Assembly: GCA_963802005.1 (NCBI GenBank)
Contig: CAWDGX010000001.1
Span: forward strand, 254,421-318,420
Source of the DNA: an uncultured Ignavibacteriaceae bacterium
GTDB lineage: Bacteria > Bacteroidota > Ignavibacteria > Ignavibacteriales > Ignavibacteriaceae
Direction of reading: 5' to 3'
Length of the DNA: 64,000 nt
Shown here: one piece after another, positions 44,527 through 48,551 of the stretch
Layout: every line of letters starts with the position of its first letter
How positions within the stretch are numbered: position 1 is the first letter of the stretch
Program-made: the position numbers and the translations under genes
Notes under the pieces: model-generated
Seen by the model: only the letters and a program-made list of their open reading frames with translations
Told to the model about the DNA's origin: nothing
The model's database searches: none

Positions 44527-45021
44527 ATGAAAAAACACTTTCGCAAAGGCGCCATCGGTACATTAATGGATGAGTATGAACGTGCGTCACTTGATTTGAA
44601 AAATCTCATCGGACAGATTCCTGAAACTGATTTTGTTAAAATCGTTGATTCTGATACTAAAGATGAAGACTGCCGTTCTGTTCAAACTATCATTTCGCAC
44701 GTAACCAATTCAGGTTATGGATATGCAAATTATATTAGGGATTGGTATTCAGTTCCAAAAAGTTCACCTGAACGAAGATTAATTTTTCAAAATGATTTTT
44801 TTATCGAGTTCGATAAAATGCTTGCTTATACGTCAGAAACTCTTGAAGGCAAGTGGGAATATTCTGATGAAGAAATTATGAAAGTAAAAATGATAGTTCG
44901 TTGGGGTCCTCAATACGATCTTGAACAATTACTTGAACATGCAGTAGTACATATTTTACGACACAGAAGACAAATCGAAAAGTTTGCGTCCAACGGGAAG
45001 ATTTTATTACTTAGTAATTAA
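44527..45021 (+). CDS. DinB-superfamily protein
   Basis: 164-aa ORF. The four-helix DinB-like layout has conserved histidines (..IISHV.. and ..LLEHAVVHILRHRRQI). This is an assignment by eye. Confidence 0.5.
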   Translation: MKKHFRKGAIGTLMDEYERASLDLKNLIGQIPETDFVKIVDSDTKDEDCRSVQTIISHVTNSGYGYANYIRDWYSVPKSSPERRLIFQNDFFIEFDKMLAYTSETLEGKWEYSDEEIMKVKMIVRWGPQYDLEQLLEHAVVHILRHRRQIEKFASNGKILLLSN

Positions 45022-45033
45022 AGGATTATTTTA

Positions 45034-45702
45034 ATGCTAATGTTAAAAGAAAAAAACATTCTACTGGTTGGAATATTTGCAATCGCAATGGCATACCTCG
45101 AATCTGCTGTAGTAGTTTATTTGCGAGTTATGTACGGAATCGAAGATCTGCTTAGAGATATTAATCTCACTCCAGATGTTTATACTTATATTGAGATAGG
45201 ACGAGAAGCTGCCACAATTGTAATGCTGGTATTTGTTGCTTTGTTAGCCGGAAGCAACTGGCAAAAAAAGATTGGATACTTTTTTATCTCATTCGGTTTA
45301 TGGGATATTTTCTATTACATCTGGCTTTATATATTTATTCAATGGCCAACATCACTTTTAGAATGGGATATACTATTTTTGATTCCATTACCTTGGTGGG
45401 GACCCGTGATTGCACCTGTTCTGATTTCAGTCTTACTAATTTCAATTGGAGTTCTACTTATAAGTGATTTTAAGTTTAAAGTTAAAATGATGGATTGGAT
45501 GTTATTTGCTATTTCAATAATTATGATTTTATACTCATTCGTGGAAGATAGTATCCGGATTATATTCAGCGGAGAAGGAAACTTTTATGAATTCAGACCT
45601 ACTTCTTATAGCTGGATATTATTCATAATTCCTTTCCTGCTTTGGGTGATAATCTCAATTAAAGTCTTCTTTCCACTCCGGAAAAATAATAATGAAAGCT
45701 AA
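45034..45702 (+). CDS. hypothetical polytopic membrane protein
   Basis: 222-aa ORF with about 6 predicted TM helices. No family recognised. Confidence 0.55.
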   Translation: MLMLKEKNILLVGIFAIAMAYLESAVVVYLRVMYGIEDLLRDINLTPDVYTYIEIGREAATIVMLVFVALLAGSNWQKKIGYFFISFGLWDIFYYIWLYIFIQWPTSLLEWDILFLIPLPWWGPVIAPVLISVLLISIGVLLISDFKFKVKMMDWMLFAISIIMILYSFVEDSIRIIFSGEGNFYEFRPTSYSWILFIIPFLLWVIISIKVFFPLRKNNNES

Positions 45703-45852
45703 TTATCAACCAATTAACCTGAATTTCACTGGATAATCCATTCTATCAACAGAAAAAGTAGATTTCTTCCAAGTTAAGATTGAATGTTAGCCCTTTGAAA
45801 AGTATTATTGTACAGTAATTATTTTAAATACTAAAACTCTGGAGAGAATTTA

Positions 45853-46578
45853 ATGGGAAGAGGCGATAAAAAATCACAAAAAGGAAAAAGATTTCAACAT
45901 TCATTTGGTAAAACCAGATTACGAAAAAAGGGTCTGACAATAAGTTCACGCAAGAAAGTCGAGGAGAAATCAAAACCGGTAGAACAAAAAAAGCAAGTCA
46001 AAGCAGAACCGCAAATTGTAAAGCCAGCAGCAGTTTTTGAACCAAAAGTAGAAGAAGTTAAAATAAAAGAGCCCGAAGTAACTGAGATAAAAGAAGAAGT
46101 AAAACTTCCGGAAGTAAAAGAAGAAGCAGTTTCTGAAATTCCGGAAATTGCAAAAGAAGTGATTAAAGAAGAACCAAAAATTAAAGAGCCTGTAGTAACT
46201 GAAATTAAAGAAGAAGCAAAACTTCCGGAAGTGAAAGAAGAAACAGTTTCTGAAGTTCCGGAAATTGCAAAAGAGCAGGTTAAAGAAGAACCAGTATCTG
46301 AGATTCCAGAAATTGCTAAAGAACCCATAAAAGAGGAACCTAAACCAGAAAAAGTGGAAGAGAAAGTTGCTGAAAAGGAATTAAAGCCTCAAGTAGAAAA
46401 AGAAGTTGCCGAAAAGAAATCAGAGCCTAAAGAAAAGAAGGACGAAACTAAAAAAGAATCAAAATCTAAAACAGTAAAAGCTGAGAAAAAAGCTCCGAAG
46501 AAAAAATCGACAAAAGAGGAGCCGGAAAAGAAAACTCCAAAAAAACGTGGAAGACCAAGAAAGAAAAAGGAAGAATAA
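45853..46578 (+). CDS. 30S ribosomal protein bTHX fused to a repetitive Glu/Lys/Pro/Val-rich tail with a C-terminal AT-hook
   Basis: 241-aa ORF with GGAGAG upstream. The N-terminus MGRGDKKSQKGKRFQHSFGKTRLRKKG parallels Thermus Thx ([26 protein letters not shown], recalled from memory). The rest is low-complexity with 39-aa tandem units and ends ...KKTPKKRGRPRKKKEE. Confidence 0.7.
   Translation: MGRGDKKSQKGKRFQHSFGKTRLRKKGLTISSRKKVEEKSKPVEQKKQVKAEPQIVKPAAVFEPKVEEVKIKEPEVTEIKEEVKLPEVKEEAVSEIPEIAKEVIKEEPKIKEPVVTEIKEEAKLPEVKEETVSEVPEIAKEQVKEEPVSEIPEIAKEPIKEEPKPEKVEEKVAEKELKPQVEKEVAEKKSEPKEKKDETKKESKSKTVKAEKKAPKKKSTKEEPEKKTPKKRGRPRKKKEE
46066..46344 (+). repeat. 117-bp (39-aa) tandem coding repeat, about 2.4 copies
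   Basis: Unit 1 (46066-46182) is KEPEVTEIKEEVKLPEVKEEAVSEIPEIAKEVIKEEPKI. Unit 2 (46183-46299) is KEPVVTEIKEEAKLPEVKEETVSEVPEIAKEQVKEEP.., followed by a partial third copy VSEIPEIAKEPIKEEPK. Confidence 0.85.
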
Positions 46579-46595
46579 TTTAACCTAAAAAGTAA

Positions 46596-48551
46596 TTAGT
46601 GTACTAAATAATAGTTATTCTCACGATTTGAATCCGGTATTGTTAAATCACCAAGCCGGATTTCATTTAAAATGTCTGATAGTTCGATTTCAATTACAAA
46701 AAATTCATCCCCTTCCTTCCAGACATCTGCAGAATAATAAATTTCTTCATCCGTTTCATTTTCATAATAAATAGTAAGCTTAACAGGAGTGGGAACATTT
46801 CCTACTTTCCTGATGGAAATATTTGCTTTATTGTTTTCCACTTCAACATTTTCTATTGCCAGATCGGGGTAACCGAATTCAAAAAACCACGGTTTCCAAT
46901 ACCAGGTTAAATCTTGCCCGGTAACATCATTAAAAGTAAAGAAGAAATCGTATGGTGTTGGATGTTTGCCATTCCATCTATAGATATATTCCTGCAAAGT
47001 TTCAAGAAAAAGTTCATCTCCAAGCATATCACGTAATATCTCATATGCAATTGAAGGACGATTGTAAGCCGAATTCCTGTATGAAATATAACTTTGTGAA
47101 AATGCTGTAATCATCGGAGGAATATCATCTTCAGTTCCGGCAAGGTATTCATAATTGCTGACAGTACTTATCAGCCTAGTATTTATACCGGCAAATTCTT
47201 CCATATATTTGAATGGCAATAGAACTGCCCAAGCTTCATCCATGAAAGCATATTTTTTTTCATTCGTACCAACAAAAAAAGGGAAATATTGGTGAGCCAT
47301 TTCATGGGCTGTTAAACCAACTGTGCTCTCCAGAGCATTTGGTGAACCATCATTAATCATCATCGGGAATTCCATTCCACCTCCGCTTCTACCATTATTA
47401 AAAGCAACGAGTGAAGGAACGGGAAATTTTATTCCGGGCATCTCCAAAGAAAAATAATTTACGAGCTCCCCACAAATTTCTGCAACTTCTTTAAAATCAG
47501 GTGATTCAGCAGGATAAATTGATTGGATGAAAATCTTTTTATTATTTACACTGTCAACCACGATTCCCAATCCATCCCATAAATAATGGTCGCTTAACGC
47601 AAATGCAAAATCAGTGACGTTACTTGCTTTATATACCCAGGTATTTAGTTTTTGATCATTTTTATAAATATCAGAAGAATTCAAATCTTCCAAAGTTAAT
47701 ATTCTTACAACCTCAGCTGATTCCTTTGCGGCAGTGTATTTTTCCAGAATTCTTTGATCAAATACTTCCGCAGGGTTTTGAAGTTCACCTGTTGCCCAGA
47801 CACCAAAGTTGTTGGGAATAGTTATACTAATTTCGAAATTAGAAAAATCATTATAAAACTCCACCTGACCACCGTAATTATTATAGTCCCAACCATCTAT
47901 ATCATCATAAACCGAAATTTGCGGATACCAGTATCCGACAAAAATCGAACTAGAATCATAAACACCCATTCTCAATGTAACTTTATCTGATATTTTAAAG
48001 TTCCAATCAATCGATAGTTTTGATTCAGAATCAGGCGGAATAGGTTTTTTCAAATATATAATAGCTAACGTATTTCTCACTGAAAAAATGCTATGGTTTT
48101 CTATATCAATTGAATCACCATTAATAATTAAATTCTTAATAATTACTCCGTCATTCACAGCCTCAGGAATAAATGAATAATCTCTGGCACTTCCCCCCTT
48201 GAAAATGTTAGGATATAATCTCAGGACAATTCTTTTTAATGTGTCAGGACTATTATTGTAATAAATAATTTCTTCACTTCCATCAATTTGATAAGTGGTT
48301 GGATCAACTTCGACTTCAATTTTATAATCAGCGGAGTTCTGCCAGTACTCTGCGCCTGGTCTTCCATCAAGAGAACGTGTCCCCTTTTCATATGCGGCTT
48401 TAATATTTCTTGGGATGAATAGTTCTTGCTGACTGAATAGGTTTGGAACTAATAAAATCACGAGCAATGTAATTGCGACAATATTGATTTTCTTTTGCAA
48501 GATCACCTCGAAATATTTATTAACAGGTAGGTAATTAAAATTACAAATCAT
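46596..48551 (-). CDS. M1-family (aminopeptidase N-like) zinc metallopeptidase
   Basis: 651-aa ORF containing the gluzincin motif HEMAHQYF with a downstream glutamate in ..FMDEAWAV... A signal-anchor lies near the N-terminus. The start overlaps the ruvB stop by 4 bp, and the true start may be slightly downstream. Confidence 0.8.

What the first reader, a model, noticed from the sequence alone, without database searches (positions are those of the whole stretch)
45853..46578. Ribosomal protein bTHX fused to a 215-aa repetitive acidic/lysine tail ending in an AT-hook
The first ~26 residues (MGRGDKKSQKGKRFQHSFGKTRLRKK) match the whole length of Thermus Thx almost position for position in charge pattern (G-D, GK, GK.R.RKK). 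In described ribosomes, bTHX is a 26-60-aa peptide buried at the top of the 30S head.

Here it continues into a low-complexity E/K/P/V-rich region with 39-aa tandem repeats (KEPEVTEIKEEVKLPEVKEEAVSEIPEIAKEVIKEEPKI x2 plus a partial copy). It then has a lysine-rich histone-H1-like stretch and a canonical AT-hook core (KKRGRPRKKK). A ribosome-anchored disordered tail with a DNA minor-groove hook would be unusual, and might link ribosome and nucleoid. The ORF has a good RBS (GGAGAG) and is uninterrupted.
Basis: partly seen in the sequence, partly recalled or inferred. Interest (0 to 1): 0.6.

Follow-up and report, generated by a model that had tools for sequence, protein, structure and literature searches.

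The report
Ribosomal protein bTHX with AT-hook tail
In a small group of uncultured sediment bacteria (Ignavibacteriaceae), the tiny ribosomal protein bTHX has a long floppy tail that carries a strictly conserved DNA-gripping "AT-hook" at or near its end, which suggests, but does not prove, that their ribosomes can latch onto DNA or structured RNA.

Summary
Window 45853-46578 (+) is an intact 241-aa ORF. Residues 1-26 match the curated bTHX model TIGR04560 over its full length and above cutoff, and it is the only bTHX gene in the genome.

The other 215 residues form a predicted-disordered tri-block tail:
- a basic linker (+15)
- an acidic Pro/Glu/Val/Lys repeat spacer (−17)
- a Lys-rich end (+14) finishing in PKKRGRPRKKKEE

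This is not an assembly artefact. All 18 genomes of the same genus that have a bTHX gene (of 21 searched), and 4 of a second genus at the same locus, carry a 130-241-aa bTHX with the same hook. The hook's amino acids are invariant while its codons vary, dN/dS is below 1 in every segment where it could be estimated, and population indels are in frame.

Other genera of the family have 36-45-aa forms, or long tails with no hook. So long tails on bTHX recur, and the new element is the hook on an acidic spacer. It is the only such motif in this 35%-GC genome.

Best reading (inferred, untested): a 30S-head protein whose tail holds a minor-groove hook away from the ribosome, where it can bind AT-rich DNA or, as the main rival, RNA. 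I class it as a new variant of a known kind, of moderate interest.

The parts
45780..45822 (+). Two overlapping sigma-70-like promoter matches (TTGAAT-17-TATTAT and TTGAAA-16-AATTAT) in the 150-nt intergenic region upstream
   Evidence: These are consensus matches only (9 of 12 positions), and the promoter type used by this lineage is not known.
45841..45846 (+). Shine-Dalgarno-like GGAGAG, 6 nt upstream of the ATG
   Evidence: Read directly from the sequence.
45853..46578 (+). Complete long-form bTHX gene (241 codons plus TAA)
   Evidence: Orthologues occupy the same locus in 18 genomes of genus g1 and 4 of g242.
45853..45930 (+). bTHX core, residues 1-26 (binds 16S rRNA h41/h42 in solved homologues)
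   Evidence: TIGR04560 scores 36.1 bits against a cutoff of 26. PDB matches to spinach bTHXc and to Thermus Thx. Invariant residues are M1 G2 G4 D5 K6 S8 G11 K12 F14 S17 G19 R22. dN/dS is 0.00-0.09.
45931..46038 (+). Basic linker, residues 27-62. Block 1-62 carries net charge +15. Moderately conserved, with K41 and K47 invariant
   Evidence: Local pLDDT bump at residues 41-60. dN/dS is 0.04-0.22.
46039..46380 (+). Acidic Pro/Glu/Val/Lys-rich spacer, residues 63-176 (net charge −17). It contains the 39-aa x2 repeat and the 16-aa x2.2 repeat, and is variable in length between species
   Evidence: In-frame +33-nt and −48-nt variants occur in sediment populations. dN/dS is 0.13-0.39. pLDDT is below 50.
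46381..46575 (+). Lys-rich basic block, residues 177-241 (net charge +14)
46537..46572 (+). AT-hook, residues 229-240 (PKKRGRPRKKKE). K231 R232 G233 R234 P235 K237 K239 are invariant in 30 sequences
   Evidence: Synonymous codon variation under invariant amino acids. dN/dS is 0.00-0.11 in six of the seven pairs that gave a value. It is the only basic-flanked RGRP in the whole genome.
46596..48551 (-). Convergent Peptidase_M1 gene. It is a conserved neighbour that marks positional orthology of the long-bTHX locus, and is not part of the function
   Evidence: Pfam PF01433 scores 41.1 bits. Synteny is shown.

Best explanation
This gene is the organism's only bTHX, a structural protein of the 30S head. 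Its N-terminal 26 residues should sit in the rRNA pocket between 16S helices h41 and h42, as in Thermus and chloroplast ribosomes. The C-terminus leaves the pocket at the head surface, as the chloroplast C-terminal extension does. From there a disordered tail of about 215 residues projects outward. A short basic linker lies on or near the rRNA. An acidic, proline-punctuated spacer of variable length follows, and should be repelled by the rRNA surface and act as a flexible stalk. A Lys-rich end carries one canonical AT-hook. The hook inserts into a narrow minor groove, most likely that of AT-rich chromosomal DNA in this 35%-GC genome. One hook binds weakly, so a single ribosome would attach only transiently, while polysomes, which carry many hooks, would attach with avidity. 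The result would be to keep 30S subunits or translating ribosomes close to the nucleoid. Shown: the bTHX homology, the single copy, the conservation and purifying selection on the core and hook, the variable spacer, the lack of any confidently predicted fold, and the charge blocks. Inferred: that the long form is incorporated into ribosomes, that the tail projects outward, that the hook binds DNA, and any physiological consequence.
For: - TIGR04560 matches above its cutoff and over its full length.
- There is one bTHX locus in the genome. A closed genome of the same genus has only the long form, and its apparent second copy is a 98.6%-identical contig-end duplicate.
- The bTHX fold binds h41/h42, and the chloroplast C-terminal extension emerges to touch uS13c or uS7c (PMC5737520; bioRxiv 10.64898/2026.07.03.736309).
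- All 18 g1 genomes with a bTHX match (21 searched), and all 4 g242 genomes with one, carry the hook. In one of them it is visible only in a shifted frame after an A-run indel.
- RGRP and its flanking lysines are invariant in 30 sequences, while the middle is full of indels.
- Hook codons vary synonymously, with dN/dS of 0.00-0.11 in six of the seven pairs that gave a value.
- The oldest g1 branches have unrelated middle sequences but keep the hook, and two have duplicated it.
- AlphaFold gives mean pLDDT 54 and pTM 0.13, and DSSP assigned no secondary structure.
- The charge blocks are +15, −17 and +14.
- The motif fits the published consensus TPKRPRGRPKK (PMC11354804) and the definition of a GRP core with basic residues 1-5 positions away (PMC4615771).
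- It is the only such motif in the genome, which is 35.2% GC.
- Bacterial precedents exist for AT-hooks that tether a gene-expression machine to DNA: CarD and WhiB7.
Against: - There is no experimental evidence of any kind, and no cultured member of these genera is known to me.
- The Pfam AT_hook score is below the gathering threshold here and in all 8 relatives tested, at 9.5-15.8 bits against 17.4.
- The nearest polyanion to the tail is the ribosome's own rRNA, so cis binding to RNA is physically plausible.
- Canonical AT-hooks of HMGA1 and Tip5 are reported to bind RNA (PMC4615771).
- A single AT-hook binds DNA weakly (established knowledge of HMGA peptides).
- bTHX was not found in about half of the genera of this family, including genomes that are 99-100% complete. 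It is therefore dispensable there, and its job in g1 could have changed.
- The HU/IHF gene complement does not differ between hook-bearing and hook-less genera.
Confidence: 0.45

Rival explanations
1. The tail is on the ribosome, but the hook and Lys-rich block bind RNA, not DNA. The target could be the ribosome's own rRNA surface, the mRNA near the head, or a neighbouring ribosome (for example in polysome packing or hibernation-type pairing).
For: Canonical AT-hooks of HMGA1 and Tip5 bind structured RNA, and extended AT-hooks prefer RNA about tenfold (PMC4615771). The local rRNA concentration around a head-anchored tail is very high (inference). Many Bacteroidota bTHX proteins carry plain K/A-rich tails, which are generic polyanion binders.
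Against: If only electrostatic RNA binding were needed, K/R-rich sequence would be enough, as in the other lineages. Here the exact R-G-R-P core is invariant across two genera, which points to a shape-specific groove contact. An acidic spacer of net −17 between anchor and hook should hold the tip away from the rRNA surface (inference). The extended AT-hook pattern, with basic patches 6-20 residues away on both sides, is not met, because only six residues follow GRP.
Confidence: 0.25
2. The tail is mainly a physical appendage with no specific target. The acidic block could neutralise and chaperone the extremely basic bTHX core before assembly. Alternatively it could act as an entropic bristle that alters the ribosome's surface charge, solubility or crowding behaviour. 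On this view the basic end merely balances charge.
For: The near-neutral tri-block layout of +15, −17 and +14. The spacer varies greatly in length and sequence (130-241 aa). Hook-less long tails in genus g39 show that a tail can persist without a hook.
Against: This does not explain why RGRP with its flanking lysines is invariant at the amino-acid level, with synonymous codon turnover, across 22 genomes, nor why it has been duplicated in two of them.
Confidence: 0.12
3. The protein has been repurposed as a free nucleoid-associated protein. Its two basic ends (the bTHX-like N-terminus and the hook-bearing C-terminus) would bridge or coat DNA, and it would no longer be a stoichiometric ribosomal component.
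For: bTHX was not found in about half the genera of the family, so it is dispensable. The basic-acidic-basic layout resembles bridging proteins. CarD shows that HMGA-like and H1-like tails are interchangeable DNA binders in bacteria (PMC2919716).
Against: The residues that define the rRNA-bound bTHX fold remain invariant and show the lowest dN/dS of the protein, 0.00-0.09. No separate short bTHX exists to serve the ribosome. The HU complement is unchanged.
Confidence: 0.1
4. Artefact: the true gene is a short bTHX, and the long frame results from a missed stop, an assembly error, or non-coding low-complexity read-through.
For: A-rich low-complexity DNA is prone to indel errors, and one relative (L014) does have such a frameshift.
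Against: The long frame is open in 22 independently assembled genomes and about 55 metagenomic proteins. The hook is in frame with the core in all but one. dN/dS is below 1 in every segment where it could be estimated. Indels in independent sediment contigs are multiples of three. RNA-library contigs from two studies cover tail sequence.
Confidence: 0.02

Closest known systems
Thermus thermophilus ribosomal protein Thx / bTHX (TIGR04560, PF17070; many PDB entries)
   Same: The N-terminal 26 residues align end to end, with the same conserved G-D, GK and G..R positions.
   Different: Thermus Thx is the 26-27-aa core alone. Here 215 further residues follow. The sequence match to the Thermus chain itself is weak (13.7 bits).
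Plant organellar bTHXc/PSRP4 and bTHXm (Pfam RPS31, PDB 5x8p, 6eri, 5mmj, 6xyw)
   Same: These are the best PDB sequence matches (23.8 bits). They share the KRF.HSFG core and have a C-terminal extension that leaves the rRNA pocket and contacts head proteins.
   Different: The plant extension is about 20 aa and binds uS13c or uS7c. It has no acidic spacer and no AT-hook. The plant proteins also carry transit peptides.
Long-tailed bTHX of other Bacteroidota (K/A/P 'histone-H1-like' or K/E/T tails)
   Same: The same idea of a low-complexity, charged C-terminal tail on bTHX. I saw 50-63-aa tails in the phylum sample and 81-192-aa tails in genus g39 of the same family, probably at the same locus. 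Earlier unchecked scan notes report more.
   Different: None of those I read contains an RGRP hook or a net-acidic spacer block. The hook form is confined to genera g1 and g242 in what I searched.
Eukaryotic HMGA proteins / the AT-hook motif (PF02178)
   Same: An R-G-R-P core flanked by Lys/Arg and preceded by Pro-Lys, close to the consensus TPKRPRGRPKK. It sits in a disordered protein with an adjacent acidic region.
   Different: There is one hook (two in two species) where HMGA has three. The Pfam score is below threshold. The context is bacterial and ribosomal. DNA binding is untested.
Myxococcus xanthus CarD (an RNA polymerase-binding domain, an acidic region and four AT-hooks) and mycobacterial WhiB7 (AT-hook)
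   Same: These are bacterial precedents for an AT-hook that tethers a protein bound to the gene-expression machinery onto AT-rich DNA. CarD also places an acidic stretch next to its hooks (PMC2919716; PMC11354804).
   Different: Those proteins anchor to RNA polymerase or sigma factor and act at promoters. Here the anchor is a ribosomal peptide. There is no sequence homology outside the hook.

Membership tests
bTHX (TIGR04560 ribo_THX) | Profile match above the curated cutoff over the whole 26-position model | tested here: met
   36.1 bits against a cutoff of 26, positions 1-26 of 26. In the genome scan it scores 40.4 bits.
bTHX (TIGR04560 ribo_THX) | Sole or orthologous bTHX gene of the genome, with no separate short copy | tested here: met
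   One match in G000, which is 89.7% complete. The closed genome G004 has only the long form, and its second hit is a 98.6%-identical contig-end duplicate.
bTHX (TIGR04560 ribo_THX) | Physical presence in the 30S head, bound to 16S h41/h42 | not testable with these tools
   Inferred from homology to solved structures.
bTHX (TIGR04560 ribo_THX) | Small size (26-60 aa peptide) | tested here: not met
   241 aa. Size is typical of the family but not strictly defining: sources already label the 140-165-aa relatives as bTHX.
AT-hook motif (PF02178; definition in PMC4615771) | G-R-P core flanked by basic residues within 1-5 positions | tested here: met
   PKKRGRPRKKK at residues 229-239.
AT-hook motif (PF02178; definition in PMC4615771) | Pfam score at or above the gathering threshold | tested here: not met
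   14.9 bits against 17.4. Eight relatives score 9.5-15.8 bits. The model has only 13 positions, so single copies rarely pass.
AT-hook motif (PF02178; definition in PMC4615771) | [quoted passage not shown] | not testable with these tools
   Needs a binding assay.
HMGA-like domain (as in HMGA1a and CarD) | Multiple AT-hooks plus a flanking highly acidic region | tested here: not met
   An acidic block is present (net −17). However, there is only one hook here and at most two in relatives.
Extended AT-hook (eAT-hook, PMC4615771) | (K/R)>3 patches 6-20 residues away on both sides of GRP | tested here: not met
   The basic residues abut the core, and only six residues follow GRP.

The most novel reading that the evidence does not exclude
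In these Ignavibacteriaceae, ribosomes are physically tethered to the chromosome. Every 30S head carries a flexible stalk of roughly 100-200 residues tipped with a minor-groove AT-hook, so polysomes bind AT-rich DNA multivalently. That would be a protein-encoded ribosome-nucleoid link, able to promote transcription-translation proximity or to park idle ribosomes on DNA. No such link has been described for any bacterium.
Probability: 0.3. Interest if true: 0.8.

Novelty: new variant of a known kind. Interest (0 to 1): 0.5.

Why it matters
How ribosomes are positioned relative to the nucleoid, and how closely translation is tied to transcription, are live questions in bacterial cell biology. The accepted explanations rest on excluded volume and on RNA polymerase-ribosome contacts through NusG and NusA. 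A ribosomal protein with a selected, DNA-type hook on a long flexible stalk would be a different and simple solution. The motif is short enough to test with peptides. The case also shows how a 26-residue ribosomal peptide can acquire modular disordered appendages, and it offers a natural series within one bacterial family for comparison: short forms, long forms without a hook, long forms with one hook, and long forms with two. If the hook binds RNA instead, it would be a new kind of rRNA or mRNA contact made from the 30S head.

Tried and rejected
- **Exhaustive representative search** with residues 1-40. It found only 11 hits, because a 40-aa query has too little power against 1.8 billion proteins. 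It gave no usable length distribution.
- **Search for longer homologues**. It found nothing, which the tool itself describes as weak evidence.
- **Core-only search among 132-422-aa proteins**. It returned only g1-type sequences because the index needs shared exact words. So I could not test the earlier scan notes of 150-200-aa tails in other Bacteroidota.
- **The search for related loci in genome contigs**. It gave two loci, useful only for the name "uncultured Ignavibacteriaceae".
- **Donor or paralogue of the tail in the own genome** (tblastn without filters). It found only compositional matches to E/K-rich linkers and poly-A tracts.
- **HU/IHF complement in hook-bearing versus hook-less genera**. 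There was no difference.
- **Intrinsic terminator scan**. None was found.
- **Metatranscriptome cover**. RNA-library contigs from two studies cover 45922-46171, 46310-46552 and 46417-46638. These are contigs, DNA carry-over cannot be excluded, and the parts without cover mean nothing.
- **Pfam, whole tail and middle block**. No family matched.
- **PDB hits to designed helical repeat proteins**. I rejected these as compositional, because AlphaFold predicts no helices.
- **Complex prediction** was not used, because it cannot model DNA or RNA.
- **Apparent second bTHX copy in G004.** I rejected it as a contig-end duplicate.
- **Apparent hook-less g1 member L014.** I rejected it as a one-base indel in an A-run.

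Full report
**1. The observation**

The ORF at window 45853-46578 (+) is exactly as described: 241 codons, ATG start, TAA stop. GGAGAG lies 6 nt upstream of the start.

The curated NCBIfam model TIGR04560 (ribo_THX, 26 positions) aligns to residues 1-26 over its full length. It scores 36.1 bits against a cutoff of 26, and the N-terminal piece alone scores 41.8 bits. Pfam RPS31 (the plant organellar bTHX family) and Pfam Thx also hit the same residues, below their thresholds. The best matches among solved structures are spinach chloroplast bTHXc and plant mitochondrial bTHXm, and Thermus Thx matches more weakly.

Tandem Repeats Finder confirms a 117-nt (39-aa) unit present twice at 46060-46293, with 88% matches. 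An overlapping 48-nt unit is present 2.2 times at 46234-46340.

The C-terminus reads PKKRGRPRKKKEE. The 13-position Pfam AT_hook model aligns there over positions 1-12, but at 14.9 bits against a gathering score of 17.4.

**2. The long frame is real**

The window's genome is 3.64 Mb in 26 contigs, 89.7% complete and 35.2% GC. It holds a single bTHX match.

In a survey of 60 relatives, 18 of the 21 genomes of the window's own genus (g1) had a bTHX match. Each encodes a 130-241-aa protein, while the sister genera sampled encode 36-45-aa forms.

Two apparent exceptions dissolve on inspection:
- A "second, truncated copy" in the one-contig genome G004 is a 98.6%-identical duplicate at the other end of the contig.
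- The one g1 protein that seemed to lack a hook (L014) has a one-base indel in an A-run, and the hook is intact in the shifted frame.

About 55 further metagenomic proteins of 139-190 aa share the architecture, and JGI already labels many of them "ribosomal small subunit protein bTHX".

Sediment metagenome contigs from other studies carry the gene with length changes only in the repeat region, and those changes are in frame (+33 nt, −48 nt). Contigs from two metatranscriptome libraries cover tail sequence, including the hook and the stop codon. That is weak evidence of transcription, because DNA carry-over cannot be excluded.

Nei-Gojobori estimates of dN/dS on eight closely related pairs (dS was saturated in three pair-segments, which gave no value) are:

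| Segment | dN/dS |
|---|---|
| Core (1-26) | 0.00-0.09 |
| Linker (27-62) | 0.04-0.22 |
| Variable middle | 0.13-0.39 |
| Hook (last 14 residues) | 0.00-0.11 in six pairs, 0.27 in a seventh |

**3. Anatomy**

A 30-sequence alignment (A1) shows two islands of invariance:
- the bTHX core: M1 G2 G4 D5 K6 S8 G11 K12 F14 S17 G19 R22
- the hook: K231 R232 G233 R234 P235 K237 K239

A moderately conserved basic linker lies after the core (K41 and K47 invariant). The middle is full of indels.

The charge is arranged in blocks: residues 1-62 carry net +15, residues 63-176 net −17, and residues 177-241 net +14. In the tail, 53% of residues are charged and 10% are proline, with a single aromatic residue and no cysteine. 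It falls on the disordered side of the charge-hydropathy boundary.

AlphaFold2, run with the family alignment, gives mean pLDDT 54 and pTM 0.13, and DSSP assigned no secondary structure. Small confidence bumps appear only at residues 41-60 and 231-240.

Across species, the hook's arginine, glycine and proline codons vary synonymously while the amino acids stay fixed. The deepest g1 branches (L003, L005, L006) have middle regions that are barely alignable with the window's, yet they keep the hook. Two of them carry two hooks.

**4. Distribution**

The nearest named relative is an uncultured Ignavibacteriaceae MAG. The DNA occurs in marine, salt-marsh and other sediment metagenomes from 13 studies.

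In a 251-genome sample of the family, bTHX was found in 27 of 56 genera. It was not found in many genomes that are 99-100% complete, so it is dispensable in this family. Long forms occur in three genera:

| Genus | Genomes with bTHX | Length | Hook |
|---|---|---|---|
| g1 | 18 | 130-241 aa | Yes, at the C-terminus |
| g242 | 4 of 4 | 170-188 aa | Yes (PKKRGRPPKKK or PKRRGRPPKKK), followed by a further K/E stretch |
| g39 | several | 81-192 aa | No; K/E/T/V repeat tails |

The g1 and g242 loci share the convergent Peptidase_M1 gene downstream, and g39 matches it weakly. The short-form genera I examined do not share these neighbours. This fits a single origin of the tailed locus in a common ancestor, though I did not build a tree.

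In a 400-genome sample of the phylum, 77 other genomes had bTHX. For the loci I fetched and read, the protein measured from the start codon nearest the bTHX motif was 33-90 aa. Several have K/A/P or K/E tails, and none has RGRP.

A strict KKRGRPKKKK DNA pattern search across 151 genomes of the order hit only g1 bTHX genes and one unrelated CheA linker.

In the window's genome, the bTHX hook is the only RGRP with basic flanks in any open frame (stop to stop) of at least 40 aa. No paralogue or donor of the tail exists there.

**5. Mechanism**

Published structures place the bTHX fold against 16S helices h41 and h42 at the top of the 30S head. They show the chloroplast protein's C-terminal extension emerging to touch head proteins: uS13c in PMC5737520 and uS7c in bioRxiv 10.64898/2026.07.03.736309. 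A C-terminal tail can therefore leave the pocket.

I infer that the basic linker stays near the rRNA, that the acidic spacer is repelled from it and acts as a flexible stalk, and that the Lys-rich tip presents the hook. The AT-hook is defined as a G-R-P core with basic residues 1-5 positions away (PMC4615771). [quoted passage not shown]

If generic polyanion binding were enough, a K/A-rich tail like those of other Bacteroidota would do the job. The strict invariance of RGRP instead argues for a shape-specific groove contact, and in a 35%-GC genome such sites are abundant. I therefore favour DNA as the target (confidence about 0.45 for the whole chain of inference).

The main rival is RNA binding, in cis or in trans (0.25). 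Canonical hooks can bind structured RNA (PMC4615771), and the ribosome's own rRNA is the nearest polyanion.

The lesser rivals are:
- a purely physical or chaperoning appendage (0.12), which leaves the invariance of the hook unexplained
- a repurposed free nucleoid protein (0.10), which the very low dN/dS of the rRNA-binding core argues against
- an artefact (0.02)

The HU/IHF complement does not differ between hook-bearing and hook-less genera, so there is no sign of compensation.

**6. Comparison with what is known, and novelty**

The protein passes the sequence tests for bTHX membership, and sources already annotate its shorter relatives as bTHX.

The hook meets the pattern definition of an AT-hook but not the Pfam threshold. 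It does not qualify as an HMGA-like domain, because it has one hook and not several. It does not qualify as an extended AT-hook either.

The functional analogues are Myxococcus CarD (an RNA polymerase-binding domain, an acidic region and AT-hooks; PMC2919716) and WhiB7.

Four full-text searches found no paper that pairs bTHX, or any bacterial ribosomal protein, with an AT-hook.

Earlier notes of this scan are unchecked AI leads. They report long-tailed bTHX in other Bacteroidota, and RGRP-tipped lysine-rich extensions on other ribosomal proteins, RpoA and FtsZ of small-genome bacteria. My own data confirm only that tails on bTHX recur.

I therefore class this as a new variant of a known kind. 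The long-tailed bTHX theme is not new. The acidic spacer plus a conserved AT-hook, confined to two genera in what I searched, appears to be undescribed.

**7. Verdict**

This is a real, conserved and selected gene. Interest is moderate at 0.5. The idea is unusual and can be tested with simple peptide assays, but the organisms are uncultured and the function is inferred entirely from sequence.

Noticed in passing
L034:1015-2901 (+) (genome G174, another family of the same order): A 628-aa CheA-type histidine kinase carries KKKRGRPKKKK inside the K/E-rich linker after its N-terminal Hpt domain. This is the only other exact hit to the hook pattern in 151 genomes of the order.
   Followed up: partly
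Own genome, contig C23 near 98.8 kb, 415.0-415.5 kb and 417.8-418.4 kb (outside the window): Six-frame translation gives poly-Lys frames 160-240 aa long in all three frames of one strand. That means poly-A/T tracts several hundred bases long, which are probably assembly artefacts.
   Followed up: no
L026 and L029 (G004:C1 near 30.8 kb and 3,855 kb): The two ends of this one-contig genome hold 98.6%-identical copies of the same 2.9-kb bTHX region, with indels. This looks like an untrimmed circular overlap, and it produces a false truncated bTHX paralogue.
   Followed up: yes
L014:1860-2020: A one-base indel in an A-run moves the AT-hook out of frame in this MAG. The hook is intact in the +2 frame. 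Homopolymer error is likely.
   Followed up: yes
window 45853-45930, compared with PDB 5x8p, 6eri and 5mmj: The g1 core (KRFQHSFGKTR) resembles plant chloroplast and mitochondrial bTHX (KRFNHSFGNAR) more than Thermus Thx or the sister genera (GKIWRGTHGK, GKIFKGSYGK). Deep g1 members have the ordinary Bacteroidota type, so this is probably convergence. It may still be relevant to the unresolved origin of plant bTHX.
   Followed up: partly
window 45853-46578 compared with L015:1501-2163: Synonymous divergence from the closest species is very uneven: dS is about 0.9-1.9 in the first 62 codons but 0.14 in the repeat-bearing middle. This hints at recent recombination or gene conversion across the tail.
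   Followed up: no
window 46119-46309: Sediment populations carry in-frame length variants of the repeat region (+33 nt at 46119-46151, and −48 nt across 46260-46309). The spacer length is therefore polymorphic in nature.
   Followed up: partly
P0054 (379 aa, from a 1914-nt ENA contig): A glycosyl-transferase-family-3-type protein (PF00591, PF02885) continues into about 50 residues that are 88% identical to the bTHX tail. This is most likely a chimeric short contig and not a real fusion.
   Followed up: no
window 44527-45702 (+): The two conserved upstream neighbours have no Pfam match. They are a 164-aa protein and a 222-aa protein whose sequence looks like a multi-pass membrane protein. They travel with the long bTHX gene throughout genus g1.
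   Followed up: partly
Family-wide survey: bTHX was found in only 27 of 56 genera of this family, and was not found in many genomes that are 99-100% complete. It has therefore been lost repeatedly or is hard to detect, so it is not a universal Bacteroidota ribosomal protein in this lineage.
   Followed up: partly
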